Shown here one piece after another: positions 8,174-45,800 of a stretch of DNA of 64,000 bases. The notes below the pieces were generated by a model, which did no database searches, was not told the DNA's origin, and saw nothing but the letters and a program-made list of their open reading frames with translations. Source of the DNA: Amoebophrya sp. A120 (taxonomy: Eukaryota; Protista; Dinoflagellata); the NCBI GenBank assembly GCA_905178155.1, contig CAJINV010000008.1:1116001-1180000 (forward strand), written 5' to 3'. Within the stretch, counting starts at the first letter, position 1. The number at the start of each line of letters is the position of its first letter. Made by a program: the position numbers and the translations under genes.

Positions 8174-10063
8174 ATGTCGCTGACGGTCCGACAGGCTCGG
8201 CAGCAGGCTCCTGCGCTGTACAATGTGCTGCAGGAGAAAGGAAAGAACCTTGACGACACCGATGAAATCATTAAGTTCATCAAGCCTTTGCTTCGACAAA
8301 ACCAGCTGAAGCTTGACCAACTCGGCAGTAAGATCAGGCTAATGGACTCGGACAAAAATAGTTTAAAGGCCACCCTGAACCAACTCGACGACGCAACGAC
8401 GGAATTCGAATCACTGTACGTCCACAAGCTGGCGCTCCTGATCTCAAACCTGCACTCAATAGCGGAAAAAATCGGCAGTACGCAATCGCTGACAAACTCC
8501 ATCATTCTGGAGATTCCCCATCCGTACTTCATTTTCAGTGTTGTTTAAGTTTATTTCACATAGGTACGATTACGAAGTTGAAGTAAAGACTGACGTGACC
8601 ATGGCGAGACCTTTGTGTTACAGGCACGTTGTTCTCGACTGTTTACGACGGTGCCACTGTTATGTGTTTTGTTGACTAGAGAAGTAAGCACTTGCTGCAT
8701 TTGACGAAACCTTTGGTCGAACGCAGGTATTTTCAAGTTCTAGCGCGCGACTACCAACTTCAGTTGGAAAGGCTGAAACACTCGATCGACGCCTGTGAGA
8801 CATCACTATGAAATGTAAAAATGTCTGGGTCTGGAAACTTGTGATGCTGGGTGGCGTCTCATGATGAGGCTACGAATACTGGCTGAGCATGACAAGTTTC
8901 TGAGCTCCTAGCTGTTGCCTATTCTGCATGACAAACCGCGGCTCTGCATCACAGAAAAACGGGGCTCTTGGGTAACGTGCATGACAGATTTAAGAGTCAT
9001 GCCAGACAAGCACGACAAACTCAAACTCAAACATGAATTCTTCCAGACCCAGACATTTTTGCAGTTCATAATCACTTGTTGGTTACCAAAGGGAAAGACA
9101 GGAGGCGCTGGCAGTGAACGAATTCCAAGAAAGCGCTGTTACGGTACATTGATTCATTTTTTTACCGTTGCGTGGTTTACTGCGATGAGTGCATACTTAA
9201 CCATAACCATGATAGAAAAGTACAGGAAGTGGAAATTATTGAGATCGAAGTCGAACTACTTCTATTGGCTTGCACAGCTTCGAAATTCTGTACCACACTC
9301 GACACGACAGGGCCGAAAAATCGAAGTTGCGTTACGTGCTAACTACGCTCAGTTCCGGTCCATTGCGGGAGAGCTACTAAAGCTCGAGGAGCGTATGGAA
9401 GAGCTGAAGCAAGCCGCGCAAGTCCAGAAAAATATCAACCTGCGAAATCTGGTTCTCGAAACCGGTACCTCTTCCGTAAGCGCAACTTCCATGACCAACT
9501 ATTTTGGCAACAACGGGGTTGCAGCGAACATGCTAGGAGGCAGTTTGGGCGTTGGGCAACAACCAGGTGGTGCCGGCGCATTTGCCCAGCAACCAGCTGG
9601 AACCGCTGCCCAGCCCGCCATTGGTGGTGGTATGTTCGGCGGGCAAAGCAATGCAAGTCTTTTTGGGCAACCAGGAGCACAAACACAGCCTGCAGCTACG
9701 GGTGGAGGTTTATTTGGAACGCAACCACAGCAGCCAGCGACCGGCGGTGGGTTGTTTGGAAACACGCAACCGCAAAACACCTCCACGGGTGGTGGCCTCT
9801 TCGGTAGCACCACCGCACAACAACCAGCGAACACAGGCGGCGGCTTGTTCGGAAGCACGCAGCCAGCCGCACAAAATACTGGCGGAGGACTGTTCGGCGG
9901 TCAACCGGCGCAGCCACAAAACACAGGTGGAGGATTGTTCGGGGGCCAACCAGCACAAAATACCGGCGGAGGATTGTTCGGTAGTCAGCCAGCACCGGCA
10001 CAAAACACTGGTGGAGGGCTCTTCGGCAACAGCGCCGGTGGCAGCATTTTCGGGGGCAGATAG
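8174..10063 (+). CDS. FG nucleoporin, Nup58/Nup49-like; exons 8174-8523, 8727-8806, 9076-9143, 9311-10063
   Basis: After removing GT-AG introns 8524-8726 and 9144-9310 and the TIR element 8807-9075, the protein reads [40 protein letters not shown]...[33 protein letters not shown] (Nup58-type coiled coil). C-terminal GGGLFG repeats follow. Confidence 0.75.
8807..9070. mobile_element. Introner-like MITE, family A (subfamily A1), in the nucleoporin CDS
   Basis: 30-bp TIR TATGAAATGTAAAAATGTCTGGGTCTGGAA / TTCCAGACCCAGACATTTTTGCAGTTCATA. TSD ATCAC at 8802-8806 and 9071-9075. Removal gives ...CETS|LVGYQ. Confidence 0.93.
9690..10055 (+). repeat. Coding tandem repeat encoding GGGLFG-(Q/P/A/N/T)n FG units
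   Basis: About 8 units of ggcgg(a/t)gg(a/c)(c/t)tgttcgg separated by cagccagc-rich spacers. Confidence 0.85.
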
Positions 10064-10874
10064 CTACTTACCCAAGCCGTCCTACTTGACGTCATGATTC
10101 ACGATGTCGGGCAGTTTCATACAACTACTTGCTAACAAAAATAGACAAGATCTCGGTCACGACATGTACGCACGACACAATGCTGACTTACCCACGCAAC
10201 AGCATATACAATTTCTTGCCAACAGAGGGGGAGCAGGCTGCCACACCTCCGAAACCCACAAGAAACGCAGGCTTTAAATTGAGTCTGTGCTAATGTTGTT
10301 CCCAGGGTTACTTTCGCGCCTCGAGACGCCATGGAAGTTGTTGTAATATCACCGCACAAATTGTGCCTACGTGTAGTCGTCCTCGTCCTTTCGCTTTGTT
10401 TATTCGCCCAACAATCGTACGAAGCCAATCCAAATGTTGATGAGTCAGGCAGTCCTCCTTCATCGTGCCTCTCTCCGTTCGTTCAGCTTGCTCGATGTGT
10501 GCGTGTCGTGTGGTTGTGGCGTTACCTAGAAGGTGCTCACAAAGTAGGTACACGGTTAATGCAATCTCGTTCTCCACCATCAGCATCACATCCGCGTTTT
10601 TCTCGTCGTCGTTCTCATCCTTTGTCAGCACCTCGAAATGTTATCCACTCCTCTGTGCCTGCGCGGGCACGGCTCTAGCGGTTCTGAAATCAAACAAATG
10701 AAAACTCTAGCCGTCAAGGTCAAGCTCAACAGCCCACACTTGTTTCTAGATACTTAAGTTGTATATGTTTTCTGAGTTTTCACTTTCTGATGATTCTTGT
10801 CAGGCCAGCTCCATGGCAGGCACCCTCCTCGAGTAGCATATGAAGCACAAAAAGAATAAAACCAGAAAGAAAAA

Positions 10875-13800
10875 GTGAAAAATTCGTTTTTTCAAGTAGA
10901 TTGTCGAACATCAATCTTGCACCCATTTGCAATGGTATTTCGGTATCACTATCTTTGCTTCGTCGAGCACATCTGGATGTTGACAAGAAGAGGAAGCGTC
11001 TCGTCAGTCTTTTTCTTCGTCGTTAGATCTAGTACGTTCATTGATGTGTTGTTTGCGCTTGCGGTCGGAACTGTGTCATCTTCAATGAACAAGAGCCGTA
11101 TTGTCGGTGCCGACAATAATGAAAATGCAGATATCAACCTCACGCTCACGCGTAGAAGTTTCCTCGAGAAGAAGAAGTCGAGGGCGAAGGTCCTGCGTCG
11201 AGTTCGGCGTACTACAAAAAAATGTAGTGGTGACGCTGAAGATGAATATGAAACCGATAAGAAGAACACAACGACCGTTACAAGTACGACGACACAGAGT
11301 AACCGCGCACCAGACACCAGCTCCGCGGGGGCCGCCAGCACAGTTACCCCAACTGTCACGCCGACGCCAGGTCTTCTCCCCGAGCTCGCGTTGGGAACGC
11401 GCATCGCCATCGATGAGTGCAGCGGGGAAGCGATATCCGGCACCAATCCCTGCGTCGTGTTCCTCAACTACGTTTCCTTCTCCCTGGAGGCCTGCGAGAC
11501 CTACAACCCGAATCGCTTCACGTTGAAGGCCTTTCGCACCGAAAACCGCCAAACGGACATCGCGGAGCAAACGAGTGTCAAGTTTTTGCTTTACGACAGC
11601 GTCTTGTGGAATCAGTTCAGCTTTGGAATCCAAGAGAACTCCTGGTACTGGCGAGCCGATCCAGCGGACCCGGGTTTTAACCAGGTGTCGAAGTCCCCCC
11701 CACTGAATCCCGACAATTGCGGCAACCAGCTCCATTTTGTTTCCCAGTCCTCTGGGACGACGTTTGCTGCCGATAACAGAAGCCAACCTCCTCCTCCTGA
11801 TTTGCGAGCGGAGCTGCGACGGTCCTTGGTCGATGATAGTGGGCCGGAGCGAGCGCCGGACTGCAGACGGGTGCTGAATTTCCGGGTAGATTCGACATCC
11901 ACCGCGGAAGACGGACTGCTCTACGTGCTTGTGGAGCGGAAGACGCCGGAAGAGCAAAATGCCCCGACAAAGAACTGTGTAGGATATCTTACAAGGGAAA
12001 ACGGGTAATTGAAACGGGATAGCGACTTTTCCAAAACTTTTACTTTGACTTTTGGCAAAGTCGCTATTTTGATCGTCGGCAATTCATGCTTTGCGACAAT
12101 TGTTTGGACCGTGCTGCCTTTTGCTGGTAAGTCCGCACTTTGGGAGTGGCAGAGCATGAAAGGGCGGCACCTCTTCGCCGCGGCGTGTGCCCGCCAGCTG
12201 CCTGCCATTTTGATCGACGCCTCCAAGCAGGCTGCGGGAAATGCCACCCGCCGCGCATCGGACGGGCAGCGCCTCCGTGGTCGGTTGTTCGCGATTATTC
12301 GCGAGCGCTGTGGGGCCCTGTGCGCATTTTGTGCACCTTTTGAAGTGGTGCGCGGGCGCTGGCCTTTGGCCTTTCAGTATTCGCCCGGATGTTGATCGCC
12401 GCCTCGCGCTTCGGAAATGCCGGGGCGCGTCGGCCCTCTTCGCCCTGAGCGCCTTTTAAATAAGCAATGGCACTGGCTGCCAGGGCCCGAATGGGCGCGC
12501 CGCCCCGCCGCGGTGCCTTGGATGGCACGCCGGCCGCGCGCGGTCCTACGTACCTTTAGCCCCCTACATTCTGGCCCGCCGCTTGGCCATTCTTACAAAA
12601 TAGAGGCCGTCGCGCCCCGGTATTCTGTATCCTGCCCGCCTTTCCGCGGTTACGCGACGCGACCGAAGCGCGCGCCAAAGAAAGGCGCCCCCCTTTTGCA
12701 ATCAACGGGCAGAGGCGGCTCCTCCGCTCGTCTCGCTAGCGGTGGCAGAAGTGTCAAGGGCCTGCGGTCGGGGGGCCACCCCGATGGCCGGCGCGTGATA
12801 TGGGTCTGTGGCGCGTTGTGGTGGCGCCACCTGTCTATTTCTGTTGCCCGTCTATTCTGCTTCGTCTGTTTGAACGAGAGAAGCAGAGAGGCAGCATACC
12901 ATGCGGTCCGACGTCGGACCGCATGGTATGGCGCGCGATGGTGGGCCGACCTCTCGCGCCAGGCCGTCCGTGCGTGCGGCGGGCGTCGCGATGTGTGGCC
13001 GACCTCTGCCGGTTGGGTGGGCTTCCCCGGTGGGGTGTTCTTTGGTTCAGGAAATGGATAACGCAACTCCCCCGGGTGGCCCGCCCCACAAGCGAGCCGG
13101 CGGGCGGGGGCCCCGTGGCCCCTCTGGGTGGTATGTTGCTCTCCAGCACGAGCCTGTGTGCCTGGGTGGTTTGCCTTCTCTTGTAAGATGTACTGTAGCG
13201 ACCCCGTGGGCCGGCTCTATCTCTGCAGCTTTCCTGACAAGAACCGCCAAAAACGGCCGGGGGCTTGGGGCGTTGGCTCGCGTTTTTTCGCATGTTGAAG
13301 ATGAAAAAAACCCAAGCGCGCCCGCCTGTTTGCTTTTGTCTTCAATGAATGCAGTCGCCGGCGGGCTCAGTCGGCCGCCGGTAGAAAGACTGAAAAAATG
13401 ACGTAGGGGGGCCGGCAAACGTGGCACCCTTCTCAGGCGTCGGCCGCGTGGGATTCTGGCGCGCGACTTGGGGTGCCCAAAAGGGCGCCCCAAAAAACTC
13501 GCCCGAAGCCAGAACAGCGAAGCCGTAGGGCAGGGCCGCGAAACCGGGCGCGAATCGAAAGCGGCCGCCCTTGTGCCGGGTTCTCAGCGGGGGGCGCTAG
13601 CTTTGCAAAAGGCGCGGGCGCGAAAAATAACACACAACGCAAAAAAGAAGAAACGCGCCAAGCGCGCGAAGCCCGCCCGCATCCTATGGGCCCGCTTTTC
13701 CTTCGGTTTTTGGGCGCCCCCCGCGGTGCCCGGGTCGGCCCGATAGCGTCGGGGTTGGCTTTCGGGAAGGCGTTTTGGCAAGTTGCCCAACGCCTGCCAT

Positions 13801-16800
13801 TTTCCCCAACCGGCCGCCATACCGTGCGGCATAACCTTACCCGCCCCGGCACGGCGGGCCCAGAAAAAGCAAAAACGTGGCGCGGGCAGAGGTCGGCGGG
13901 CAAAGAAGCGGCGCCGGCCTCATTATCTCCGCCCCGGCGGCTATGTTTGGCGCATTGAAGTAGGGGCGCAGCACGCCGCGCGGCCCGGCCTCGCATGTTC
14001 CTGCGGGCCGCATGGCGTGGCGCGCTTCGCTGGAGCTGCCCGCGCCTCACGTTTTGGCGTGGCGCCTTTCTTTTGGCGCTAGCTAGAGGCCGCCCGGCCT
14101 GCCCCTTTCTCTTTCATATTCGCCGTCCCCCCGCACTTACATACAAAGCGCCGAGACCATGCCGCCGCTCCAGAGTGCTCCGCCTAGGTCGCGGCGGCCT
14201 ACCTTGCGCGGCCGGCTTTTCGCGAGTAGAAAGGGCGCCGGCGCAGCAGGGGCACGCGCGGGGCGCCCCTCACATCTTGCTGCGCCGGCGCGCGCAATAA
14301 GTTCGCCCAGGAGGCTCTGTCCCCATTTTCGGGGAGACCGCCTCAGCCATGTAAAAAAGGGGGGGGGCAGCAGGATTCTGCGCAAGCCTGGCGGATGCGC
14401 AGCCACGCCTTCAGGCTTTTCGGCTTTTGAGGGGGCGGCGAAATCTTCTGTCTGAGTGCCGAAAATCTGCCGAGAACTTGCCGAAAACTTTCCCCCGAAC
14501 TTTCCCGAAACTTTCCCGCTTCGGGATCATTTTCGGACCCGAAAACTTTTGGTTGACTTTTCAACTCCCGGTCTGTAACTTTTGGTCGACTTTTAAACGG
14601 GAGAATTTTTGGGGAAGGTTTCGCGGAAGGTTTTCGCCGACTTTTCGGGAAAGTCCGGGGGAAAGTTTTCGGCAAGTTCTCGGCAAAGTTTCCGGCAGAG
14701 TTTTCGGTAGAGGGTCGGAAAAGTTTCGCCGCCCGGCGCCTGCCCTTTGTTCCTGCCCGCCAGCCGGGCCGCCCTCGGGCGGCTGCCTTGCGCCCGAAAA
14801 GAGGCACAGCCTCCCGGCAGGCACGCCTGCGGTTATTGCGCACGTAGCCAGGCAAGCGGCCGGCTCCGCCCCGGCGGGCGGCCGGCGCTATGTTGTCGCA
14901 TGCGCCACCGGGCAGCGGATTCACGCCCCGGGGGCGCCGGTGCGCGTGTCGCTCGCTTGCTGCGAACCAAGAGAGGGCGCCCGGGCTTCGGCGGTTGCTA
15001 CCGACCCCCTGAACTTGGCGCGTTGCGCCGTTCGGGGCGCGTGCGGGGCATGCGCTCCGCGTACTCCACACTTGCGGCGGCGGGCTCTTGGGGGCCCGGG
15101 CGCCGCTGGAGTTGGCGGTGGTTTGCCCAAACCCATAGACGGAAGGAACACCCGGCCCGGCCGCGCCAGTCCTTCGCCCCCCCGCCCGCGACCGACCTAG
15201 ACCGGGGCCGGCCACAGTGTGCCGGCAGGCAACAGCCGCGCGGGCGTGGCGCCTGTGCACCGCCGGGCCCGGGCGGGGGAGGCGGGCTTTTGGGGTGCCG
15301 AAGCGATTCCGCCGCATCCGCCAGGCGCCCGCCGGCCGGAGCCGGCCTGCCTGGGGGCCTCCCACCCTCTGAGTGGGGGGGGCGCCTGCATGTTGGGCCC
15401 CGCCGGCCTGCCTGCGCGCCCGCCTGGAATACCGGGCGGCGCCGCCGCGGGTCTACTTTCTACGTGCCGGCGGCCCGATTGCCACCCATCGTTCGTCTCG
15501 CCCTTCGCTCGCCCTGCGCCCCACCCTGTCGGCCGGGATTGGGCGATCTGCTTCGTCTCTATCTGGTCAGCCGGGGCCTGTGCCTTTGCTGTTTCGCTTT
15601 TCCGACAAGCATACCGTGCGGTCCGACGTCGGACCGCATGGCACGCTCGACACCGTTTCGGGCGGGGCGAGCCATATTGGGGCGCCGGGCGATGTGGTTG
15701 GTGCACGGGCGGAACTGCGCCCCTGCGTGCGACGTAGGGGAGGGGACGTCGTGGGGGCTTACTTACCCTCGGGGCCTGTTTGCTTGCTACGTGTGGGGCT
15801 GCCGGACGGTAAGCCGCTGCTGCGTGTGCCCAGCGTGCCAAATATAGCCTCCGTGGCGGAGGTGGTGAGGTCGGTGCCGCTGGCTGCCTTGCCCGCCGAC
15901 CGTTGCCCTGGCCAGCCACTGCGTGCTTTTTCTGGGCCCACCGTGCCGCTTTTGGTATGGCCATGCCGCGTGGCTTGGCCGTCTTTTGGAGAGCATGGCA
16001 GTTCTTTGCCAAATTTTCAGAACCCCTGCCCGAAAGCCAGCCCCGGCGGCATGGGGCCGATCCGGGCGCCGCGGTGGAGCGCCCTAAAACCGAAGGCAAA
16101 CCGGGCCCATGGCATGGGGATTGGCCTCGCGCGCTTGGCGCGCTTTTGCTTTTCTGTGTTTTTTCTTTGCGCGCCGGCACCCTTTGCAAAGCTTCCGCCG
16201 CATAGAAACCGGCGAAAAGGTGGGGGCCGCTTTCGCGGCCGGCCAAATGCTCCGAACCAACGAAGCCCCGCCCGGCCCTGTCGTGCGGCTTCGCTTTTCT
16301 GATTTGCCGCGAGTTTTTTGGGGCGCTCTTTTGCGCGCCCCAAATCGCCAGAACCCCACGCGGCCGGCGCCTCAGGGGGGTGCCCCTTTTCTTTGTCGGC
16401 CCCCCTGCGTCGTTAGTATTATCAGTCGGCGACCGATAGAGCCCGGCGCCGGCGGTTCGTTGAAGTCAAACAAAGCCCAACAGGCTGGCGCGCTTTGATC
16501 TTCTTCATGTGGAAGAGCGCGAAACAGCAGCACACACCGCCGGCAGCTTTTGGCCGGTGGTTGCTTTGCATTCAGAAAGCTGCCAGGGTCGGGCCGTTTC
16601 GCGGTGGCGGCCCGCCGGCGGCAGGAGGCGCGGGCTGGCGCCGCGATTCCGGGTGTTTGTGAGGCTTGGGCGCGCGCGTTTTTTGGCGAGGGCGCGCGTT
16701 GCCGGGTGCCCGGTTGCGTCGGGTTTAGGGTCTGGCGGACCGGCCCCCTTCCCTGTGTCGGTAGCCCTCCTCCTAGTCAGTTCCCGGGTAGGCCTTCCGG

Positions 16801-17264
16801 GCCTGGGGGGCGGGTGGGTGCGATGGGCGGTCATGGCCTTTTTCTTTAGGGCGCCCGCGCCGGCAGCCGTTGGCTGCGTGCGGTCGGCGGGTACCCGGCG
16901 CGCGCGCACGCTTCGGCGGGTGGAAAGGCGGTCGCTCGGGCTTCGCCGATCACCCGCGGGACAAGAGGAGGCGTCGGCGCCCAAGACCTCGCAGGCGCCC
17001 CTGTTCTGTCGCTTGGAGTATCTTCACTGCGTTTTTTCGTTCTGACTCGCTTTATCAAATCGTTTTCAATACCCTGAAATCCTGAAAAGTCAAATGAAAA
17101 GTTTTGGAAAAGTTCGAATCGCCCGCCAATTAGCCGTTTTCCCTTGTAAATATCAAGGACTAGAAAACGGGTCAACTGACGTGAACGCAAATGCCACACT
17201 GGCAGAGATGCGGCCAGTGTCGCCGATCACTCTCGCTTCTATCACGCCTGCACCGACAAGCTGA
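10875..17264 (+). CDS. Hypothetical protein with hydrophobic N-terminus, interrupted by a 5.2 kb TIR element; exons about 10875-11984 and 17160-17264 (true start uncertain)
   Basis: The ORF runs into the left TIR at ...PTKNCVG. After the right TIR and repeated AGGA the same frame continues LENGSTDVNANATLAEMRPVSPITLASITPAPTS-stop (TGA 17262-17264). Confidence 0.55.
12895..12930. repeat. Perfect 36-bp palindrome; diverged second copy at 15610-15645
   Basis: CATACCATGCGGTCCGAC|GTCGGACCGCATGGTATG; copy 2 is CATACCGTGCGGTCCGACGTCGGACCGCATGGCACG. Confidence 0.95.
13244..16560. repeat. Diverged long inverted repeat of about 0.7 kb: arm 1 about 13244-13975, arm 2 about 15820-16560
   Basis: Colinear reverse-complement blocks, e.g. 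GGGCCCAGAAAAAGCA vs TGCTTTTTCTGGGCCC, AAACGCGCCAAGCGCGCGA vs TCGCGCGCTTGGCGCGCTTT, GCGCCCCAAAAAACTCGC vs GCGAGTTTTTTGGGGCGC. Confidence 0.85.
14468..14685. repeat. Central inverted repeat (43-bp arms, 1 mismatch) embedded in 11-12-nt CCGAAAACTTT-like microrepeats
   Basis: TGCCGAGAACTTGCCGAAAACTTTCCCCCGAACTTTCCCGAAA (14468-14510) pairs with 14643-14685. Confidence 0.9.
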
Positions 17265-30544: not shown

Positions 30545-33500
30545 ATGTCGAATTGGTTCGACCGCGCCAAGGCGTGGACGAGCGAGGCCGCCGTGAAGGT
30601 AACGGAAGCGACGCAGAAGGGTTACGAAAAGACGAAAGATGCGACGATCAAGGCGAAGGAAATTGCCAAGCAAAAGCTGGGCCGCATGGAGACGGCCCAG
30701 GAGCTGACGAAGATTTTGGAGGAGAAGGCACGGAACGCGGTGACGCTGATATCAAATGTAAAAATGTCTGGGTCTGGAAGAATGCAAGTTTGTCATGCTT
30801 GTCTGGCATGACTCTTAAATCTGTCATGCGCATTACCAAAGAGCCCCACTTTTCTGTCATGCAGAGACGTAGTTTGTCATGCAGATTAGGCAACACCTAG
30901 AAGCTCAGAAACTTGTCATGCTGAGCCAGCAATTGTGGCCTCCTCATGATACGCCGCACAGCATCACAAGTTTCCAGCAGACCCAGACATTTTTGCATTT
31001 GATAGCTGACCCAGATCGCGGACTTGCACCGCTCCTGGATCTCGTCGATGAACCGGAAGGACGGGCCGAGCTACATTTTGCCCTCCTACGCCTGGGAGGT
31101 ATCAACTGCAAAAATGTCCGGGTCTGGAAGATTCTGAGACTTTGACTTGTCATGTACGTTTTGCATGAGCCATGAGGTCTGGAATGCGAGGCCTAGCATG
31201 ACAGATTCTCTGGGGTCTCTATCATGCCTTTCCTGCGTGAGAAACTCCCGCGCAATTTGGTCAAAAGCGGACAGCTTTTGGTACTCACGCAACACAGATT
31301 TTTGCATCATTCGGATTTAGCATGACAAGTTCTAATCTTCCAGACCCAGACATTTTTGCATTTGATAAGAGGAAAACTTGAACAACCCGGACGCCGATGT
31401 CGTGGAGCGCCAGTTGTCGACGGATGCTGCGGTCTATCAAATGTAAAAATGTCTAGGTCTGGAAGATTACAACTTGTCATGCTGTTTTTGGACTCTAAAA
31501 AAATTTGTATTGCATGGCCGGCAAGATGGGTGCAATTTGTGCTTACACGGAGAGGGCATTCCTCATGCGGAAGGTGCATCAGGAAGCCCTCTAAAAGTCT
31601 GCGATGCTAGGTCATGCATTACAAACATCATGGGTCATGAGAAATATGCATGACAAATCTCGCATTCTTCTAGACCCAGACACTTTTGCAATTCATACGG
31701 TCGTGGCGGAGAGTCCAGGGGAACAAACCTCGACCACCACATCATCCGGGGACACGAGCAGTTCGAAAGAAACGACGCCCGCAGGAGGGGGAAAGGAAAA
31801 GGAAAACAAATCGATATTTTCAAAAATCTCCTCCGTCGTCAGCAAACGGGCTGGCTCGCACGAGGCAATCATGGCGGAACGAGAAGCGGCCGCAAAGGAT
31901 CCAAACAAACGAATTCTGTCGTTCAAACAGGTGCAGCTTGTTTTCCTGACAAGTAGTTTTCACCAGTGAATGGGAGTTGTATCGCCAGTTGCTTCAATAT
32001 CAATGCCGTCACTACAACTTCTCATGCTACTACTGGTGCGTAATAATTTCCACGCATGCTGCTTTTGTGCTCGTCAAGAGTGAATTTTTTGAATTTGATT
32101 GGTTACATTCATTCCAGTTCACTTGGGCTAGTGGTGATGCCGAACACGACATCATCTCAACTCCAAGGTATTCCTGCGGTCCCGGGCATTGGAGATCACG
32201 ATGGAAACTATTTTGTGTGACGAGTACATGCGGAAGCGCTTTGCGCCACCAACACCTGACGACCACAGCTCGCATTCGTTTTACTTCTACTCGTTGTTGC
32301 AAAACGCGCTGTCGTGTCCCCCGGAAATCTGGGGCGGGCTCTTGCGGACCGCCACGGAAGCAGAGCTCCTGACTGACTACCACATTCGATGGCTGTCAAG
32401 GCTGTTTGGCGTGCTGAAGATCGACTGGTTGGACGAGGTATTCCACAGCGAAAGGAAAGACATGGCAGTTCGGGCGGAGCAGCTACGAAACGAAATTCGC
32501 AGCGTCAAGACGGCACTGCCGAGCCTCACTGATCTCGAGATTGAAAAGCACCACAAGAAAAAAGTCACGGCGAGTCGCGACCTGGTACTATATTTATAAT
32601 TTTTTTCTTTTCAGCTGGACGAGAATTGATTCGGGGGAAATCAGATGGAAACGAGATTGAATGATGATAATCATTAATCAATTCGAAATAAGAACACGAC
32701 AGGGACACAGGGCCATCATCAAAGATGAGGACGGCCATCCTTTAACTTTATCTATGAATTGGAACAAGTTCTGTATGCAACATCCACAACGAGGAACAGC
32801 GAAAATAAGTATGAATATGAACAACTTTTCGCCAGGTCCAACTGTATAAAGGACTCCGAGTCAATATGGAGGAAGCTTTGAAGCATCGACAAGTGACGCT
32901 GCAAAAACGTGATGAGAACATGAAGAATCTCGAACTGGAAATGACGAACTACAAGACCGAGCTGGGTTCCACCACGGTGTCAAGTATGGAAACCCGGGAG
33001 AAGCTGACAAAAGAGCTTGCGGAAGCAGCGGAAGTGCTCAAGGTAGATCTGGAATCCATTGACAAAGACCGTCTCGCTGTCGACCAGGAAATCGAAGAGC
33101 TCGAAGTGCGCAAGAAGAACCTAAAACTGGAAATCGAGGAGGTAAAAAGTTGTAAGGGCACTGCGACTTCTACTTTCTTGAATCTTTTGAATCCACCGAT
33201 TTCCTTGCATGACTTGTCCTTGAGTTTGAGTAGCACGATCTTATTTCGTACCTACGTACTTGTTGAGTTCCATAGTTGTTTCCGATCGCCAGCCCGGCAG
33301 ACATAGTTTTTGCTATAGGTGAATACAACGACGACTTCAGGTGACGCAATTGCTGCTCATAGCGCGGCAGAAGCAGAAGCACTTCATGACCGAGCAGGAC
33401 CAGAAGCGAAACAACATGTACTCCGAAAAGAACAATTTCAAGCGTCAGATCTCCGAGAAGGAGCGGCTGGCCCTGGAGTGTGAAATTGGGGGCAAGGTGC

Positions 33501-34762
33501 TCGAGGAGATCCACAAGATCGTGGAGGTCACAGAGAAGCAAATGTCGGCGTCGCTCGGAAAACAAATTTCGGAGCTGGGGAAGAAGCGCGACCAATTTGA
33601 CCAGCACTTTGTCGAGGTGCTACGCGATCATTGCCGGTACGAGGACGACAGGCTTGTGTCCATCGGGGAAATCGCAAAGGTTAGCTGCAGCCGGCTCATA
33701 AAGCTGAACGATGGGGACGAGACGCTGGTGATGCAGGAAACTGCCAAAGCCGCCGGCGCTGCAACGGGCGATGGTACTTTTCGTATAGCTGCGCATTTAG
33801 ATTTAGTCACCTTTGGCACCTGCGGCCGGACTTCTTCACCTTTTGTAGCTTGTTTGTACCGTCGTAGCTTGATTTTACTGGCGTTTCATCGTGTTGCTTC
33901 GCGTTGTCGTTTCTCCGGAAAAAACACAAGTGATGTCTTTGCTTTCTACAGGATCTTCGGCAGCCCCGCAGCAACTGACGCGAGCAGAATTTCTGGTGCG
34001 CGAGCGGCATGTCTTCACAAAGGCAACGCACGACCTCGAGTTGGTTTGGACGGACATTATGAGCTTCAAAAAACAGCACGAGGACATTATCGCTTCCAGT
34101 CCAGTTTTGAAGGACCTGGTTTCCAGGATGGAAACAAAATACCGACAAATCAAACAGCATCTTTCGCCTGGTATATTGATGAAGAAGAGCTATCCCTTGT
34201 CGTCATTTTGTGAGGTATCTCCGAGAGCAAAAATAATCAAAATGTTGAAGCTGATGGCTCTTTTTTAAAAGAAGCGTTGTTACAACCAAGAAAATCAAGT
34301 CAATGTCGCGTACAAATTTCAGGTTTGGAAATGATGGTCCAAGCCAGCATGCAAAGTCCGGTGGGCACACCGGACGCGGGCTCCGTTGGATCTATCCAGC
34401 CTACCGAGGCCCAAGTGGAGGCTATGCCCCCGGTTCAGACGCACACGCAGGTGCAGCAAGCTCCACCACCGCCCCCACCCGCACCTCCGGTGGTTGTGGA
34501 AAAGAAGGAAGCACCACCTGCTCCTGCCGCGCCGCCGGCCCCGGTTGTCGCAGCAGAAGCGAAAGAGCAGGACCCAGCTCCTCCAGTGGTTGTAAAACAA
34601 TCCAAACCGGAACCACCAGCAGCGCCGACGTCTCCGGTCGCTGCAAAAGTAGATGCCCCTCCGCCTGTCGACGACGTGGTCGATGCGGCTGTTACTGAGC
34701 CAACAAGCACAACTGCAGCTAAAACAGCCGAAGGCGAAGATGAGGATTTTGCCATTGCCTAA
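30545..34762 (+). CDS. Multi-exon coiled-coil hypothetical protein with Pro/Ala-rich C-terminus; contains three TIR elements
   Basis: Starts MSNWFDRAKAWTSEAAVK. After removing the elements it reads ...NAVTL|TQIADLHRSW...YAWE|ENLNNPDAD...DAAV|VAESPGEQ. Further GT-AG introns follow (e.g. 31931-32168, 32585-32835); ends ...EDFAIA-stop at 34762. Confidence 0.75.
30750..31004. mobile_element. Introner-like MITE, family A (A1, opposite orientation to 8807-9070)
   Basis: TIR TATCAAATGTAAAAATGTCTGGGTCTG / CAGACCCAGACATTTTTGCATTTGATA. TSD GCTGA at 30745-30749 and 31005-31009. The interior is a diverged reverse complement of the 8807 element. Confidence 0.93.
31100..31367. mobile_element. Introner-like MITE, family A (A2)
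   Basis: TIR TATCAACTGCAAAAATGTCCGGGTCTGGAAGAT / ATCTTCCAGACCCAGACATTTTTGCATTTGATA. TSD GGAGG / AGAGG (4 of 5 match). Interior similar to 40411-40675. Confidence 0.92.
31435..31697. mobile_element. Introner-like MITE, family A (A3)
   Basis: TIR TATCAAATGTAAAAATGTCTAGGTCTGGAAGA / TCTTCTAGACCCAGACACTTTTGCAATTCATA. TSD CGGTC at 31430-31434 and 31698-31702. Confidence 0.92.
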
Positions 34763-36150: not shown

Positions 36151-39100
36151 ATGGCACCGTCTGTTCCGCGGGAAGTGCAGAAATGGATGCAGATGCTCGC
36201 GCTGACGCATACCATCAAGGACGCAAAATTCGACTTGGCGAATGGGTACCTGATCGCGCAGATGTTCCAGCGGTACTACCCGAAGGACTGCTCTTTGTAC
36301 CAATACGAAAACGGTCAGTCCATTCACTGTAGATCCAACAACTGGGAGATGCTCTTCCGGCTCTTCAAGAAACTCAAATTTCCCTGCACTCGGGAAGAGT
36401 TCGACGAGGTGCTGCATCACGTGGACGACGCCGCCGTTTTGTTCCTGTGCAAAGTGTACGAGTTTCTCACAGGAAAGAAGGTTCTTTTTGTTTTTCTTGT
36501 TTCGTTTTTACTTTGTTTTATGCCGATGCTTTTCATTCGTCAAAGTCAAGTAAGAAGTAAAGCGCTTAAGTTCTGATGTCAGACAGTTTGCTTTACTTTT
36601 AGCTTTGACTTGTTCTCTCGTGAAATACGTTTTACGCGGAGAGAACATGATGTGCACAAACTCAGGTGGTGCTCTTTGGCAGTCCACAGAAACCAACGGA
36701 GCCGAGATTTGCGAAGCATACTGCCTCTTGGAAGCTGAAAGATGCGCATCTGGAGCGAATAGAGGACAACATTCACCGCACTATAAGACGAATCCAGACT
36801 CTGGAGCGGCACAACGACGATCTTGCCAGGGATCGCATAGGACCGGACGGTGCAGGTAAATGTAAATCTAAATTACTTATGCTCAACGCATGCAACGAAA
36901 ACGACGCTTGCAAGCTCAAACATTTTTGGTGCTGTATTTTTTGCCGTGAGCTGGTGTGAAGTAACGACGCTGATGCTTACTTAGCTGCTTTCAAAGTGAA
37001 TGCATTCTTATTTCTAATTCTAGGTGTTCGTCGCTTCATTGCGCTGGCCAAGGCACACGACACGGCCGACAACGACAAGCTAAGGTCGTTGAAATCCAAG
37101 ACGGAGACGGAAGTCACGGACACCCAAGGCCCAGTACGAGAGCAGACGGTGAATGCCATGCTCTCGAAAACCGCGGGCATGCAGAGCATGAACAGCGTGA
37201 GCAGTAACCAAACGACAAGACCAATCAAGAGTCAACAGACACACACGGCTTCGGTCATTGCCAATATCGGCTTTCACCAGCCGACAGGTATTTTTTCATG
37301 CACGATAGATAGATGCGGTTCATCTTCATACAGCTTGTACTTTTTGCTTTATGACGTTTTTGCAGACAATATCGGAAGATATAGATTTTCGAAACTCGTA
37401 CGTTTTTGCTCGTGGCTCGAACGGAGCCATTGGCGAACATTTTTTTTTCGTTGGTGCTTCTGCTTTCAACCTCTAGCTACGCGCCATGCATTTCCTTTTC
37501 ATTCAGGTACAATAAAAGCCACTCTGGACATCATAAAGCCACTGATTCTCGGGGAACTAGACAAGCAGACGTTGGCTCAGGCTGCGGATTCGGAGGAACT
37601 TGACCCAGTTATGGCCTTTATCGAGGCAACGCTGCGGGAAGCGCTCCCCGAGCCTTTGATCTTGAAGCTTTTCAAGGAGAAGTTGATAGCGCGCGCATCT
37701 CTCTTTATCGACAGTCTGTTGAAAAGCTCGGTGGAATTTTGGAAGACCTGGTCGGCCTTTCTCCCACTTCTCAACGAGCTACCTGCAAGAAGCAAAGTTT
37801 TCGAATCCGTATAACTCTATTCAAGCAATTTCGACCCTTGTATTTCTTTTTGATTTTTTTTTCCTTCGTCTATCATGTAAAAGTAAAAAAATCTAAATGT
37901 AAATGCGTTTTTGCTTGTGACGCTGCATTTCTTGGCTACAAAACACGACAGGCGATGGACTTCTGGAAGCGGGTCGGAGAGCTTTGCAAAAACCGGGACG
38001 AAGCGCTCACGCAAAAGTGCATGCTTAACGTGTGTCTGCCCTCCCTCGTGCAGCTTATGCACGCGGATGCGACGAAGCGAGAGACGTGCTGTCAGCTTGT
38101 CTACACCTTCTTAACGGGCGAGGTCACACACGCGGATCAGAGCGGGTTAAGCTTACCCCGCGCGGTAGCTCGTTTGCAGGCGCTGAAAACCGTGAAGGAT
38201 CTTCTGTTCGAAAAATTTGGCAACAAGTTCGTCACGAGCTACGTTCCGTGCCTAGCGTGCTTCGTGCACTGGGACTGCTCCCCGAGTCAGCCGCTGACCG
38301 ACCATTTGCTTGACTTGTATCTGTATTACGCCCTGCTTGCGCTGCAAATGCCCCAGCCACGACTGCGAATGGCGGGGCTCACACTCCTGACCAGCATCGC
38401 CGGAAGCGGGTACAGCCACCTCATATTTGTTTCATACGTATTTTCTTCGTCGCCGGCTCGTTTCTTTTCTCAATATGAATATGAATCATGCGAGCCTGAG
38501 GCTAGAGTGGTTCACAAACTAACCAGCGCTCACAGTGAGTGCGAGCACAAGACGAGCCGAAAAATTTTTGAAGCAATTCGCTTATTTCCGCTCTACTTGT
38601 CCTTGTGCACGATGATCCCCATTAGGCGGTGAGATTCTTCCACTCCAAAATAAAAAATAATCGAAGGTCGTCCGATGCGGTCTTGTCTCTGGTCGCATCG
38701 TTGAAGGGCTTGATGTACGACTCCTGGTGGGAGGTTCAGGCAGGTTTGTTGCTGCTGGTTTCCACACTCTTGCTGAAGTACTTCCCCGGGTACACCACGC
38801 AGCCCCTTTCCCCGCAAAACACGACCGCGGTGGAGGATCTGTTGAAGATTGTGAAGCACGTCGTGAACCCGCAGACCGCCAGCAAGAATGTGCTCCAGGT
38901 CGGCTTGAGCTATTTCAGCCGCAACCTGCACCAACTGGTGCTGCCGCCTACAATATCAAATGTAAAAGTGTCTGGGTCTGGAAGAATGCAAGATTTGTCA
39001 TGCATATTTCTCATGACCCATAATGCCTGTAATGCTTGAACTAGCATCGCAGACTTTTAGAAGGCTTCCTGATGCACCTTCCGCATGAGAAATGGCCCGT

Positions 39101-41136
39101 CTGTGTAGCAAAAACTGTACCCATTTTGCTGGTCATGCAATACAATTTTTTTTAGAGTCCAAAAACAGCATGACAAGTTCCAATCTTCCAGACCCAGACA
39201 TTTTTACATGTGATATACAACTGCACCACCGAAGGACGAGGACGGCGGGGAGGCACCGCAAACGAACGCCGCTATTGTGAGGAAAAATCCCCCCTCCCCA
39301 TATTCAAACAGGAAATTTGTGATGCTGATTTGTGACCACAAATCATGTTGTCATGCTAGAAGGGAAAAGACGCAGACTGTAGTGCTGGCTGGCGTAAGAA
39401 GGCCTTGCATCTTCAGCATGACAGGAGGCAACTGGAAGTGGGAAACAGCATCACAAATTGCCTGCAATTCAGGCCGCAAGTGCGTCCCTTGGCCTTCTAG
39501 CAACACAAGCCGATTTGGGGAAGCAAATCCAGCATCACAAATTTCCTGTTCGATATGGGGAGGGGGGATTTTTCCTCTTGATAGCCGCCGTGAAGTCTTT
39601 CTGCATGCTTTACGCAAACGCACTGACCAGCCAGCAGGCGGCCTTCCGTGGGAGGCTGCTGCCCCCAGAGTGCCAGGCCGGCGGGGGATCGGAGCAGGCC
39701 GGCGGCGCCGAGAGCAGCTCCATCTCGCAGCACCAGCCGGAAAAGGTGCAGTACGTGCTGGGAGAAAACACCGTCTTTTTTCAGGAGTACCCGCTGTTCC
39801 CGCTTGCGGCCGCATCCGGGGGCGGATCCTTATCCACAGAAAAAAACCCATCCACATCCATTTTTTGCATGGCAAACAGGTGACTTGATACGTGTTTTGC
39901 ATGACAAATTGGATGTGAGTGGGTTTTTTTCTGTGGATAATCCTCGCCCAGTTCCTCCAGTGCGAAGAACACGACGAGCCGGCTTTGCGTGGAACTCGCG
40001 GAGGCCGTGTGCGCGGTCGCGAACGGCAGTGGGGCCGCCAAGGAAGAGAGCGAAGTCGACCCGGTGGATATCCTGAGTAAAAACGTACCCAAACCAGAGT
40101 CAGGATGAGGATTTTGCAACACAAACCTAGGAGTTTTGTGAGTCACGCATGACAAGTTGGACTATGCAGTGTAGTGCAGGTTAGCAAGTGCAGCCGCGTC
40201 ACAGATTCATCTGCTCATCCTGTTCACAGCGTCACAAATTCCAAAACAGGATTGGAAATGGCTCTCATGGGGATGCGCATTACAAGTCTTCCTGTCTTTG
40301 CAATTCTGCATTACAACTCTGGTGTGGGTATGTTTTTACTCAGGATAGTGGAAAACGCCGCGGCCATACTCCACGTCCCGCTGCTGCCGCTCGACCGACT
40401 GGAAGCTGGGTATCAAACGCAAAAATGTCTGGGTCTGGAAGAGTGTAGACTTGTCATGCAGGTTTTCCATGACTCGTGGGGTCTGGAATGCGGGACCTAG
40501 CATGACAGAGTCTGTGAGGTCTCTGCCATGCCTATCCTGCGTGAGAAACTCCCTCTAAACATGGTCGACAGTAAGTGGACAGCTTTTGGCACTCATGCAG
40601 CACAGATTTCTGCATTATTCAGATTTAGCATGACAAGTTGCAATCTTCCAGACCCAGACATTTTTGCAATCCATACTGGGCACTTGGAAACCATCTACGC
40701 ACTGGTAAAGCGCAAAATACTCGACAACAACGGCCTGCCGGCGCAGAGCTGGGTCCCGGTCTACGACCTCTTGAAAAAGTATCTTTTCGTGGCGCTACTG
40801 GAGCCGGAGAACCACGCACTGGCCGCAAAAGTCCTGCGGGAGACCTTCTACGCACCGGAGGCGGGTCAAACCCGCCAATTGTTCATTCGCAATAGCACAG
40901 AGACTTTTGTCTCCATGTATGGCTTGTGTTTGGCAAACGATGCCGCCGACCCCGAGGCGGAGGACGGCGGGCCGTCGGCAGCGCTCGTCTCGGAAGCCAC
41001 TCTGTGCGAATTCGTGAAGTCCCTCATCAGCGAAGATTCCGAGCTCAAGTCGGCTTTCAAAAACGTCTTCCGCTACTACAAAGAGCAAAAGCGTGACGAG
41101 TTTGATCGCTCCATGCTCGCACCGCTGGCCTCGTAG
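36151..41136 (+). CDS. SPEF1/SPATA4-type calponin-homology (CH_2) domain flagellar protein with long helical C-terminus; about 11 exons, five TIR elements
   Basis: VPREVQKWMQMLAL...FDLANGYLIAQMFQRYYP...YENGQSIHCRSNNWEMLFRLFKK. The frame is continuous through five element excisions (PPT|TAPP, TNAA|VKSF, GGS|SPSS, DPVE|NAAA, EAG|HLET) to TAG at 41136. One junction near 38430-38670 was not resolved. Confidence 0.8.
38954..39215. mobile_element. Introner-like MITE, family A (A3, opposite orientation to 31435-31697)
   Basis: TIR TATCAAATGTAAAAGTGTCTGGGTCTGGAAGA / TCTTCCAGACCCAGACATTTTTACATGTGATA. TSD TACAA at 38949-38953 and 39216-39220. Confidence 0.93.
39273..39583. mobile_element. Introner-like MITE, family B
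   Basis: About 55-bp TIR TATTGTGAGGAAAAATCCCCCCTCCCCATATTCAAACAGGAAATTTGTGATGCTG / CAGCATCACAAATTTCCTGTTCGATATGGGGAGGGGGGATTTTTCCTCTTGATA. TSD GCCGC at 39268-39272 and 39584-39588. Confidence 0.92.
39831..39939. mobile_element. Introner-like MITE, family C (109 bp, almost entirely a hairpin)
   Basis: TIR TATCCACAGAAAAAAACCCA...ACATCCA / TGGATGT...TGGGTTTTTTTCTGTGGATA. TSD ATCCT at 39826-39830 and 39940-39944. Confidence 0.92.
40069..40347. mobile_element. Introner-like MITE, family D
   Basis: TIR TATCCTGAGTAAAAACGTACCCAAACCAGAGT / ACTCTGGTGTGGGTATGTTTTTACTCAGGATA. TSD GTGGA at 40064-40068 and 40348-40352. Confidence 0.92.
40411..40675. mobile_element. Introner-like MITE, family A (A2)
   Basis: TIR TATCAAACGCAAAAATGTCTGGGTCTGGAAGA / TCTTCCAGACCCAGACATTTTTGCAATCCATA. 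TSD CTGGG at 40406-40410 and 40676-40680. Confidence 0.93.
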
Positions 41137-42881: not shown

Positions 42882-45800
42882 ATGAAGAGTAGGATGCTCT
42901 TCTTTCTTCAAGCTTTTCTGATCGTCCGTAGCCTGCTTAATTGCAGGCTATTGAGTCTCATCGCGCCGCCACTTTCCGGGGCGGGCTTTGTTCTCGCCGT
43001 TGCATCCCGTTCGCAAAGAAAGGGCAGCACGGAGAAAACCAAAGATAAGCACGAGACCGGTGGAACTACCGGAAGTCGAAGTGGTGGTCTGCGGTCGATC
43101 TCCTCGCTGTCAACTACCGAGTGCGAGCGCGAATCGTGCAGCCGTCGAGAACTAGACCCTGACCAACGTCGCCAATATGTTCGCGATGTCGGAAGTAGAA
43201 CGGACGTGGCAGCAGCTCCAGGAGGCTTAGGAGGTCGTACACGACCAGCATCAGGTTCTGCTGACATAGACGAGTCGCCCTGGTGGGTTGGCGGCGAGCC
43301 CGACGCCGATGATCTCGAACTCGATGGCCTGGCGCCATTTGAGCTGCCTGGGTCGTTCGCTGGTGAGGACGAAACTGCGATGCGGTCGCCCCATGATGTA
43401 GGTGGAGTGCTGCATCGAGACCTCGTCCATGGGCAAGATGTTGACTTTCGCGGAGCTCTGACGGACGCACAGACGGCGCTTCGAAAGCTATCTCTCAGCG
43501 GCGGTCGTACAACCTCAACCAGCGGTCGTAGAAACAAGAAGAACAAAAAGAGTGGAGGAGTAGGCGGTAGTGGACGAGCAGAAGTATCTCAGCCTCCTCC
43601 ACCAGCTGCCCGCAGCTTCGGGGCCCCCTCAGGTGCGTCCTCCTCCAGCAACTTGAGCCCCCGCCGCCCGCACAGAGCGGCGGGTTCCTCTGCGAATCAC
43701 CACCAGCCCGGCGAAGTTTGGACGCGCACCGGACGAATTTTCATTTCTTCGAACGACCAGGCGGCTGCAGCGAGTACGTCTCGCGCAATGGACCAGCAAT
43801 TTTTCCGCGAGCAGGTGCGCGACGCCAAGCACCACGTGGGTCCCGTCGAAGAGGCGCGGCTTGGCCAGGAGACAGCACGAGAGCGTCTCATTGAGCTAAT
43901 GCGCACGTATGAGGATGTACAACGACAACTCCCCCTCCTTTCTACTTTTGCATGAACAGACAATACAACGCGCCGCTATTGCATGACAAGCTCATCATGC
44001 CTGCCCGAGCGTTGTACGGCCTGGGCTTGTTCCGGTATTCGTCATGCGAACAGCCCCCCGTCATGCGAACAAGACGAGGGCCTTTGCATGACAAAAAATG
44101 AGGGCGCGGTAGCGCAGTCTGATAAGCATGACAAATGAGGGGGAGTTGTGCACTCGGATAGCACGACGAGCAACTTCAGTGGTTGTGGGCGTTTTAGGAC
44201 CTTCAATACACCCAGTTCGCAGACAGAGTTGGAGAGAAGCGTCCGGTTGCTGGAGGAAGCCACGAATATCTTTTATTCTCGCGCCGCTCGACATGTCTGC
44301 AAAGAGCGCCGCACGGCGTCCTCCGCCCCGCCACCAGGAGATCATCCAGAGTATAATTCTTCGAGCGGCCGTGCCGTTCCATCTCCGCCCGCAATTCCCA
44401 TTTCCAACCTTCGCGACTCGCACCGAGGGCGGGCACACCAACGTCGACCGGCAATGTTGTCTGGTATTTCAAGAACATCTCAGGACTGGGAATGGTCATC
44501 TACTTCATCTTCTAAGGAAGACATCCGGGGCAGCATTTTTTTCGGTGCAGATTATAGTGAAGGAGAAGAGACACAGCAAGAGGACCACAACCTTGAGAGG
44601 ATCACAGCCGAGATGGACTCAAAATTACAGACGGTTTCTCGCTTGGCGGAAAGAACGTACTGGAGCGAGGGCGTGCTAGCGTATTATCGAGCTCGCGCAA
44701 AGTATGTGCTGCTCCGTGGCGATCGCGACAAGCCACAGTACGATTCGGATTCTGAGGACGACAGTATCGCTGGAGATGACGACACTGACACTGAGACTGA
44801 CCCTGACCACTCCGGGGTTGGGGAAAGAGAAAGAGGCGATCTGGTCCAGCTGGACCTCAACGTCGAGGAGGTAACCGCAGAGCATGTGGGCATGCGCATT
44901 ATGATGCAGCCGGACGGAACGGCCGTCCTTCTGGATCACAACCATTTCGCAACGGGGCCAATCCCTGAGGAAGAGGATTCAGACAACGAGAAACGCAGTG
45001 CTGCACTTGATGCCCCGGAAGAATCCGAAGAAGTAGACCACGATGTTGTACGACTGCTGCATGAAGAGGAGCCAGTGTCCTGGGGAAGAGATGAACTCGC
45101 TTCTATCGTTGCCCTTGTCTACGGTCTGGCCATTCATTCCAAGCATGCCCACGTCCGCACGAGGGCATTGGAAGCGCTAGTCAACATCTGGAGCGATATC
45201 ATTCAGGCACTCTACATGCTTGACGAACACCACGAGTACATGACACCGGGGCGAGGCCCGGCCGCGTATGACAAATTGTTGGGTCCCCTTGCCTATCCTG
45301 TGCAAAAGTATCGTACTCGTACTATCTCTTGCAGTTATGCATGCCAAATATTGTTCTTCGTTCTTAAGGTAAAACAGCACGACAAATTCCAGTTCGCACG
45401 CTGAGCGAATTTGTAAATGCAATTCATATAATTAGTGCGATACTTTTGCATTGCATACTGTTCGATTACTAGCGCTCAAACTTGCTGGGTTCGGGGACTA
45501 TGTGAAAATTGCACCTGAGCTGTCCGCGCGGTCGCGGATTTTTCCGAAGGACTGCCCCTGGCAACTTAAAATAAAGCAGCAGCTCGATGCTTTATCGAGC
45601 AGGGGGGGAGCAGGAGAGCCGCCAGCCGCACCACTTCCTGGTCGGAGTATCCGCATGCGTCTCCCTGATGTTGTTCTTGCGGAGGTTGACACCGACGTCT
45701 CCTCAAGTGCCGCTGCCAAAACGTTGTGGCGGCGACAACTGACCAAGCCCAAGCGGAAGCCTCGGCCACACAAAAACGACAGCTTTGCTTTGGTGGAGCG

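What the first reader, a model, noticed from the sequence alone, without database searches (positions are those of the whole stretch)
8802..44165. Ten exon-embedded TIR elements from five families share one end code (TAT...ATA, 5-bp TSD) and must be excised without GT-AG
Seen in sequence: elements at 8807, 30750, 31100, 31435, 38954, 39273, 39831, 40069, 40411 and 43908 all start TAT, end ATA and carry a 5-bp direct repeat. Each would frameshift its host gene or add an in-frame stop if retained. Removing the element plus one TSD restores the frame every time. Sliding the junction across the TSD gives a GT..AG pair only for the 31100 element, and no GC..AG or AT..AC pair for the other nine. Established: non-canonical introns with inverted and direct repeats (introners) have been reported in Amoebophrya, so the class is not new. 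Inference: one shared end rule across dissimilar TIR families implies a single dedicated removal machinery, either structure-guided RNA splicing or IES-like DNA excision, working beside the normal spliceosome in the same genes.
Basis: partly seen in the sequence, partly recalled or inferred. Interest (0 to 1): 0.9.

Follow-up and report, generated by a model that had tools for sequence, protein, structure and literature searches.

The report
Transposon-born introns of parasite Amoebophrya
Ten small transposon copies inside genes of the marine parasite Amoebophrya A120 are real, and the eight covered by transcript data are missing from the transcripts together with exactly five extra bases; this odd intron class was described in this genome in 2021, and its removal is likely guided by an RNA hairpin rather than by the shared end letters.

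Summary
The elements are real but already published. The window is Amoebophrya sp. A120: my spliced gene model equals a public A120 protein. Farhat et al. 2021 describe these introner elements there, including the TAT start and 5-bp direct repeats. Transcript-like contigs lack element+5 nt for 8 of the 10 elements (1 direct joint, 7 by exact length), while a DNA-like run keeps them. Corrections: the repeat at 31100 is imperfect; 43908 has an in-frame GT-AG alternative; an eleventh element (45294) was missed. In loci from a related assembly, 210 of 283 elements have an exact 5-nt repeat, copies sit in both orientations, GT-AG is at chance level, and all families share an inner GCATGACA motif. 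Elements with a changed TAT/ATA lie in coding frames as often as intact ones (8 of 19 vs 127 of 300). The shared ends are therefore likely a transposition code, not proof of a dedicated removal machine. Best model: hairpin-guided RNA cleavage and ligation; a relaxed spliceosome is nearly as likely. The cut register was not read directly.

The parts
8807..9070 (.). Family A element, repeat ATCAC on both sides, in the FG-nucleoporin gene; opposite orientation to 30750
30750..31004 (.). Family A element, repeat GCTGA
   Evidence: direct joint 30744->31005 (skip 260 = element+5) in contigs of X3 and X5, 0 in X1
31100..31367 (.). Family A element, imperfect repeat GGAGG/AGAGG; GT..AG possible at +5 (31099-31371)
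   Evidence: removing the whole upstream copy would give a stop; side length 91 fits retention of the upstream G
31435..31697 (.). Family A element, repeat CGGTC; reverse complement of 38954 (89% identical)
   Evidence: exact contig length
38954..39215 (.). Family A element, repeat TACAA
39273..39583 (.). Family B element, repeat GCCGC
39831..39939 (.). Family C element (109 nt), repeat ATCCT
40069..40347 (.). Family D element, repeat GTGGA
40411..40675 (.). Family A element, repeat CTGGG, in a block that aligns without a gap to two orthologues
43908..44160 (.). Family E element, repeat GCACG, weak TIR; canonical in-frame alternative GT43907..AG44161
   Evidence: no RNA joint listed
45294..45457 (.).
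8174..10063 (+). Host gene: coiled-coil plus FG-repeat nucleoporin-like protein, 427 aa model, 2 GT-AG introns + 1 element
   Evidence: PF13634; model
30545..34762 (+). Host gene 1: 799 aa model without a Pfam match in the two exons scanned, 5 GT-AG introns + 3 elements
   Evidence: contig lengths 3308 and 3178 reproduced
36151..41136 (+). Host gene 2: 920 aa CH_2-domain protein, 5 GT-AG introns + 5 elements; identical to a public A120 protein
42882..46635 (+). Host gene 3: 1108 aa model, 2 elements, no family or homologue found

Best explanation
These are non-autonomous DNA transposon (MITE) copies lying in exons, missing from transcript contigs as element plus 5 nt, and likely removed from the pre-mRNA by a cleave-and-ligate reaction that is predicted to recognise the long end-to-end hairpin rather than GT-AG or the letters TAT/ATA. 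Shown: anatomy, 5-nt repeat, loss from transcript contigs (8 of 10), presence in a DNA-like run, both orientations, no GT-AG excess. Inferred: (1) one transposase, not found here, inserted all families with a 5-bp duplication and would explain the shared ends and the inner GCATGACA motif; (2) the TIRs pair in the RNA; (3) the two cuts fall at fixed distances outside the stem that sum to 5, with at least 2 of the 5 nt on the 3' side if the register is fixed; (4) the enzyme is separate from the spliceosome. I put about 0.8 on RNA-level, hairpin-defined removal and about 0.5 on the whole statement including step 4.
For: Joint 30744->31005 in X3 and X5, absent in X1, whose contigs run into or across the elements. 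Spliced models reproduce four contig lengths exactly: 3308, 3459, 3178, 3546. The same contigs skip the GT-AG introns, so they behave as RNA. 210 of 283 elements defined without using the repeat have an exact 5-nt repeat (4 nt: 1; 6 nt: 0). Removal of +5 opens a coding frame in 127 of 300 (+4: 22; +6: 11). In an RPB1 gene the exons flanking a 972-nt element map to yeast residues 1068 and 1070. Both orientations: 31435 and 38954 are reverse complements and both are removed; 5/6, 10/3, 8/4 and 3/2 opposite/same in related loci. GT-AG at +5 in 8 of 128 sense and 3 antisense, about 6.9 expected in a similar set. Folding z -2.7 to -11.9 for the 11 elements against -1.5 to +1.1 for 10 GT-AG introns; ends pair in 10 of 11. 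TAT positions are no better kept than other TIR positions (0.96-0.99). 8 of 19 elements with a changed end lie in restored frames, one in a conserved dehydratase gene with 7 elements and an 8-nt exon. Inner motif 2.0-5.25 per element against 0-0.5 shuffled in all 11 multi-member clusters. Register 0 gives a stop at 31100 and at L047:4667, register 1 at L044:1532.
Against: No enzyme, intermediate or excised product was seen. 7 of the 8 RNA-supported removals rest on length arithmetic, not on printed joints; RNA status of X3 and X5 is the tool's guess; both belong to one study; X1 may be the window's source. The raw-read RNA run X9 had no exon cover. 43908 does not pair its ends in the prediction. 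Strong folding is automatic for any TIR element and does not show that the fold is used. At register 4 the element supplies N-TAT, like the GTA start of 8 of the 10 GT-AG introns of genes 1 and 2; none of the 8 coding end-mutants changes that first T on the 5' side (too few to test). PMC7789003 reports that only 30% (repeat search) to 68% (profiles) of A120 non-canonical introns are such elements. The related loci have no RNA support, and their strand calls are heuristic: they changed.
Confidence: 0.5

Rival explanations
1. A relaxed major spliceosome removes them: the intron would begin one base before TAT (N-TAT as a degenerate GTA donor, supplied by either TIR) and the hairpin would deliver an arbitrary 3' site four bases after ATA.
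For: Register 4 is allowed by all stop constraints. 8 of 10 GT-AG donors in genes 1 and 2 start GTA. U1 was not detected in A120 or A25 while 83 of 89 spliceosomal proteins were (PMC7789003 section 10); a strain with GT-AG introns has U1 (PMC12005148 passages). Tunicate non-canonical introns are said to be excised by the spliceosome (PMC11282704 passage).
Against: No base preference at any repeat position, so no 3' signal. Donor and branch regions would be buried in a long predicted stem. G...G repeats that allow true GT-AG are not enriched (16 vs 14.0 expected of 128).
Confidence: 0.37
2. IES-like programmed DNA excision removes element plus one repeat in a transcriptionally active nucleus.
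For: Ends look like transposon ends. Only one DNA-like run was laid, as contigs, which drop rare variants.
Against: X1 shows 0 of the joint and its contigs enter or span the elements. A second DNA assembly keeps elements in RPB1. Element ends continue into unique flanks in RNA runs, including 71 raw reads of X9. No germline/soma split is known in this genus (recalled).
Confidence: 0.05
3. The junctions are reverse-transcriptase template switches across a hairpin flanked by short repeats, and the RNA really keeps the elements.
For: Template switching makes false non-canonical junctions (PMC2923612 abstract). A search for direct RNA data found no paper.
Against: Retention would break gene 2, which has full-length orthologues, and RPB1 in the related assembly. 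All eight are absent together from the long contigs.
Confidence: 0.02
4. The letters TAT...ATA are themselves the removal code read by one dedicated machine.
For: TAT[CG]N4G.AAA is shared by all clusters (C/G 0.97 at position 4 and G 0.90 at position 9 of 488 ends; TAT and AAA were required by that scan).
Against: 19 of 319 elements have a changed TAT/ATA and are in coding frames as often as intact ones. A25 has the same phenomenon with TTA ends.
Confidence: 0.06

Closest known systems
Introner elements (IEs) of Amoebophrya sp. A120 (Farhat et al. 2021, PMC7789003; sections 10-12 and 16 read, supplement passages)
   Same: Same organism and genome; non-canonical introns with terminal inverted repeats starting TAT + 7 nt + AAA, direct repeats, hairpin, many families, mixed with GT-AG introns.
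   Different: The paper gives repeats of 3-5 nt and variable splice positions; here the repeat is strictly 5 nt and the loss is element+5. The inner GCATGACA motif, two-way orientation and tolerance of end changes were not found in its main text; its figures were not visible.
A120 TIR DNA introner families of Gozashti et al. 2025 (PMC12130899; passages, 11 of 58 A120 rows of supplementary file 8)
   Same: TIR DNA families of 106, 148-165, 252-261, 278-279 and 305-349 bp, matching the sizes here; superfamily unknown.
   Different: Automated duplication calls of 2-5 nt and mixed splice-site calls in the rows seen; no removal mechanism in the passages seen.
Euglenid nonconventional introns (PMC12501133 abstract and introduction; PMC11282704 passages)
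   Same: No GT-AG, paired ends, duplication-like repeats at junctions, coexist with spliceosomal introns, machinery unknown.
   Different: Euglena needs a N3CDG...CH'GN5-6|R signature; these elements have TAT...ATA, long TIRs and no junction base preference. Circles are reported for Euglena and untested here. Unrelated lineage.
IS3EU/GingerRoot and hAT5 DNA transposons (PMC10045372, PMC12730594 passages)
   Same: IS3EU: TA..TA or TAY ends. hAT5: 5-bp duplication.
   Different: IS3EU usually makes 6-bp duplications (0 of 283 here). No transposase was found, so the superfamily stays open.

Membership tests
Amoebophrya A120 introner elements | Lies in the A120 genome | tested here: met
   Spliced gene 2 identical to the 920-aa A120 protein P0001
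Amoebophrya A120 introner elements | Removed from transcripts without GT-AG | tested here: met
   8 of 10 supported; one of the eight (31100) also allows GT-AG; 8807 and 43908 lack RNA support
Amoebophrya A120 introner elements | Inverted repeat starting TAT, 7 nt, then AAA | tested here: met
   9 of 10; 43908 lacks the AAA
Amoebophrya A120 introner elements | Direct repeat of 3-5 nt at the exon border | tested here: met
   5 nt, exact in 9 of 10; 210 of 283 in related loci
Amoebophrya A120 introner elements | Repeated as families | tested here: met
   9 of 10 cluster with other copies; 43908 is a singleton in the sample
MITE (non-autonomous TIR transposon) | Short, TIRs, target duplication, many copies | tested here: met
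   median 262 nt
MITE (non-autonomous TIR transposon) | Cognate autonomous transposase with the same ends | tested here: inconclusive
   No transposase family in 113 frames of >=230 aa from 0.49 Mb (110, 3); whole genome not held
IS3EU/GingerRoot | TA..TA / TAY termini | tested here: met
   TAT...ATA; definition
IS3EU/GingerRoot | 6-bp duplication | tested here: not met
   0 of 283
hAT5 | 5-bp duplication | tested here: met
   definition
hAT5 | hAT transposase | not testable with these tools
   no autonomous copy found
Major (U2) spliceosomal intron | GT/GC...AG ends | tested here: not met
   absent for 8 of 10; possible for 31100 (+5) and 43908 (+2)
Major (U2) spliceosomal intron | Lariat intermediate and snRNP dependence | not testable with these tools
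   no raw reads covered the genes
Euglenid nonconventional intron | Ends brought together by pairing | tested here: met
   predicted for 10 of 11
Euglenid nonconventional intron | N3CDG...CH'GN5-6|R signature | tested here: not met
   by inspection of the end logo and junction composition; signature
Ciliate-type IES | Empty site in somatic DNA | tested here: inconclusive
   0 joints in one DNA-like run, contigs only, stage not known

The most novel reading that the evidence does not exclude
Amoebophrya A120 runs a second, spliceosome-independent pre-mRNA splicing system that measures fixed spacers (summing to 5 nt) from the base of any transposon hairpin, cuts and religates. It makes one transposon superfamily harmless in exons in either orientation, possibly using a domesticated transposase part that binds the GCATGACA motif, and is convergent with Euglena's nonconventional splicing.
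Probability: 0.3. Interest if true: 0.8.

Novelty: already known. Interest (0 to 1): 0.32.

Why it matters
The class and its TAT ends are published for this genome, so the finding itself is not new. How tens of thousands of such introns are removed is still open. The refinements here (strict element+5, either orientation, no GT-AG excess, end letters dispensable, shared inner motif, register of at least 2 if fixed) narrow the mechanism and give a cheap test: elements whose two repeat copies differ let existing RNA reads show where the cut falls. A spliceosome-independent route would be a second nuclear mRNA splicing system in an alveolate.

Tried and rejected
Whole genome not held; the records behind the loci are not searchable by handle. 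A lay of X3-X6 on L025:4700-7069, chosen for repeats mismatched at positions 4 and 5, gave no exon cover, so the register was not read; the locus may be another strain or silent. No homologue of either gene 3 exon among longer proteins. No match of the family A end in viral contigs. No transposase in the related loci; a 2459-nt end pair with an exact repeat in L078 holds a 415-aa frame with no Pfam match. Register from indirect signals: A/T direction of mismatches leans to the downstream copy only at position 1 (7 vs 3) and is flat elsewhere; 12 of 31 mismatches are synonymous against 25-30% for random changes; junction residues in a SNF2 helicase, an enoyl-CoA hydratase and a weak HicA-like match were inconclusive. 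An apparent lack of antisense GT-AG-compatible repeats (0 of 128, P=0.002) did not hold when strand was called without the repeat (2 of 105; 3 of 128). The weak hits 52665-53723, 32591-32817 and 44765-45198 were dropped as chance (no good repeat, no motif cluster). and the nucleoporin model had coordinate errors of mine, corrected. Pyrimidine content near 3' ends does not separate the two intron types.
Full report
Observation. All ten elements are present with TAT...ATA ends. A scan of the whole window found 9 of them plus one weak hit; 10 shuffles gave no perfect-repeat hit. Nine have an exact 5-nt direct repeat; 31100 has GGAGG/AGAGG. 43908 has an exact repeat but a weak TIR. They fall into five clusters. 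An eleventh element at 45294-45457 has a degenerate repeat and sits in the same gene as 43908; both must go to give the long frame (1145 codons stop to stop, against 791, 775 or 421). Sliding the junction gives GT..AG only for 31100, as stated. But a repeat of the form G...G creates GT before TAT and AG after ATA, so 43908 could be spliced canonically as element+2, in frame with one added residue.

Source. The gene 2 model built by removing five elements plus 5 nt and five GT-AG introns is identical, 920 of 920 residues, to a public protein of Amoebophrya sp. A120. Orthologues from A25 and from a transcriptome of another strain align without a gap across the 40411 junction; the other four junctions lie in variable linkers.

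RNA and DNA. Contigs of runs X3 and X5 (RNA by the tool's guess; they also skip the GT-AG introns) show the joint 30744->31005, a skip of 260 = element+5, absent from the DNA-like run X1, whose contigs enter or span the elements. The joint table was cut (680 rows not shown), so the other junctions were tested by length: my models reproduce the four long contigs exactly (3308, 3459, 3178, 3546 nt) and all listed inner positions checked. This supports 8 of 10 removals, from one study. 8807 was outside the laid stretch; no joint over 43908 or 45294 was listed. The raw RNA run X9 covered no exon.

Larger sample. The family A end pattern gave 149 stretches in a metagenome collection, all listed rows from one record set, held as 147 loci, 0.49 Mb. 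Whether this is the same strain is not known; A120-type RNA contigs did not cover the one locus laid. Of 283 elements defined by ends alone, 210 have an exact 5-nt repeat, 34 one mismatch, 8 two and 31 more (many of these are ends of neighbouring elements paired wrongly); exact repeats of 4 and 6 nt number 1 and 0. Removing +5 opens a well-scoring frame in 127 of 300, +4 in 22, +6 in 11. In an RPB1 gene the exons around a 972-nt element map to yeast residues 1068 and 1070. A dehydratase gene holds seven elements and an 8-nt exon. So removal is exact where it matters, and pseudogenes or a cDNA artefact cannot explain the pattern.

What the signal is. The repeat has no base preference beyond exon composition. 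GT-AG-compatible repeats are at chance level (8 of 128 sense, 3 antisense; about 6.9 expected; 3 and 2 of 105). Copies lie in both orientations, in the window (31435/38954, 30750/8807) and outside. All 11 multi-member clusters carry 2.0-5.25 copies of an inner GCATGACA motif, against 0-0.5 in shuffles; repeated inner motifs are typical of transposase binding sites (recalled). Anchored on the inner TIR, the outer TAT is kept no better than other TIR positions. 19 of 319 elements have a changed TAT or ATA, and 8 of the 19 restore a frame, the same share as intact ones. The ends therefore read as a transposition legacy. What every orientation and family shares at RNA level is a long end-to-end stem (10 of 11 predicted). 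Strand calls in these loci are heuristic and none has RNA support.

Where the cut falls. Not read directly. Among 32 oriented elements with mismatched repeats, taking the whole upstream copy into the intron gives a stop in one, and keeping only its first base gives a stop in another; 31100 also excludes the first case, though it may be spliced canonically. If one register holds for all, 2 to 5 of the five bases lie at the intron's 3' end.

Mechanism. Most likely a transposase inserted the families with a 5-bp duplication, and the transcript is repaired by cuts placed relative to the hairpin, then ligation. I favour a pathway apart from the spliceosome (0.5) because both splice regions would be buried in the stem and no 3' signal exists. 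A relaxed spliceosome using N-TAT as donor is close (0.37): 8 of 10 ordinary donors here start GTA and U1 was not detected in A120. TAT...ATA as the code itself (0.06), DNA excision (0.05) and template switching (0.02) are unlikely.

Known work. PMC7789003 (abstract, sections 10, 11, 12, 16, passages, supplement legends and table passages; figures not visible) reports for A120 65% non-canonical introns, 29,850 repeated ones in 1954 families, inverted repeats starting TAT + 7 nt + AAA, direct repeats of 3-5 nt with a 5-bp example, a hairpin model and no transposase in A120. PMC12130899 (passages; 11 of 58 A120 rows of file 8; files 13-14 not searched) classes A120 families as TIR DNA of unknown superfamily and describes one with integrase-like frames. 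PMC12501133 (abstract, introduction), PMC11282704, PMC12005148, PMC11453091, PMC9860276, PMC10045372, PMC12730594, PMC4455052 (passages) and PMC2923612 (abstract) gave the comparisons. Roy et al. 2023 was seen only in reference lists. I found no mention of the inner motif, element orientation or excision in the main text of PMC7789003 and no paper for 'Amoebophrya, introner, subterminal' or 'Amoebophrya, direct RNA, intron'; unseen figures, supplements and subscription papers may hold them.

Verdict. Real, a member of the published A120 introner class: already known. Interest 0.32, for the refinements and the register test they open.

Noticed in passing
window 5986-7515 (+): Intronless gene for the spliceosomal second-step factor Prp18 (PF02840, PF08799), 509 aa, next to the nucleoporin gene.
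   Followed up: partly
window 48286-51497 (+): Reverse transcriptase and RNase H frames in a GC-rich stretch, in different frames; looks like a non-LTR retrotransposon.
   Followed up: no
window 12000-17000, inverted repeat 14461-14692: GC-rich (0.63-0.72) stretch with a 50-nt, 94% inverted repeat unlike the TAT elements; frames have no Pfam match.
   Followed up: no
window 31282-31367 (as a match): About 200 raw RNA reads of X9 match only this element 3' end and continue into other sequence on both sides; an element end retained in an abundant RNA from another locus.
   Followed up: no
L065 7121-7619: Two elements 7 nt apart with overlapping repeats would leave a 2-nt exon; suggests removal one after the other.
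   Followed up: no
L049 5517-5756: An element with a mismatched repeat appears to lie inside an ordinary intron of the RPB1 gene rather than in an exon.
   Followed up: partly
L021 4305-4560: A repeat mismatch (GGGTC/AGGTC) creates a GT..AG pair at +5, a possible drift of an element towards a canonical intron.
   Followed up: no
proteins P0003 and P0005: The orthologue of gene 2 in strain AT5.2 is annotated as two genes (513 and 363 aa); the first ends at the position of the 38410 intron. An annotation split worth checking for a missed intron.
   Followed up: no
window 38954-40347, gene 2: Four of the five elements sit in linkers that are variable or A120-specific against two orthologues.
   Followed up: partly
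window 2981-4039, 55320-57506, 59245-61557 (+): TLC-domain, glycosyltransferase 17 and flavoprotein/DFP frames.
   Followed up: no
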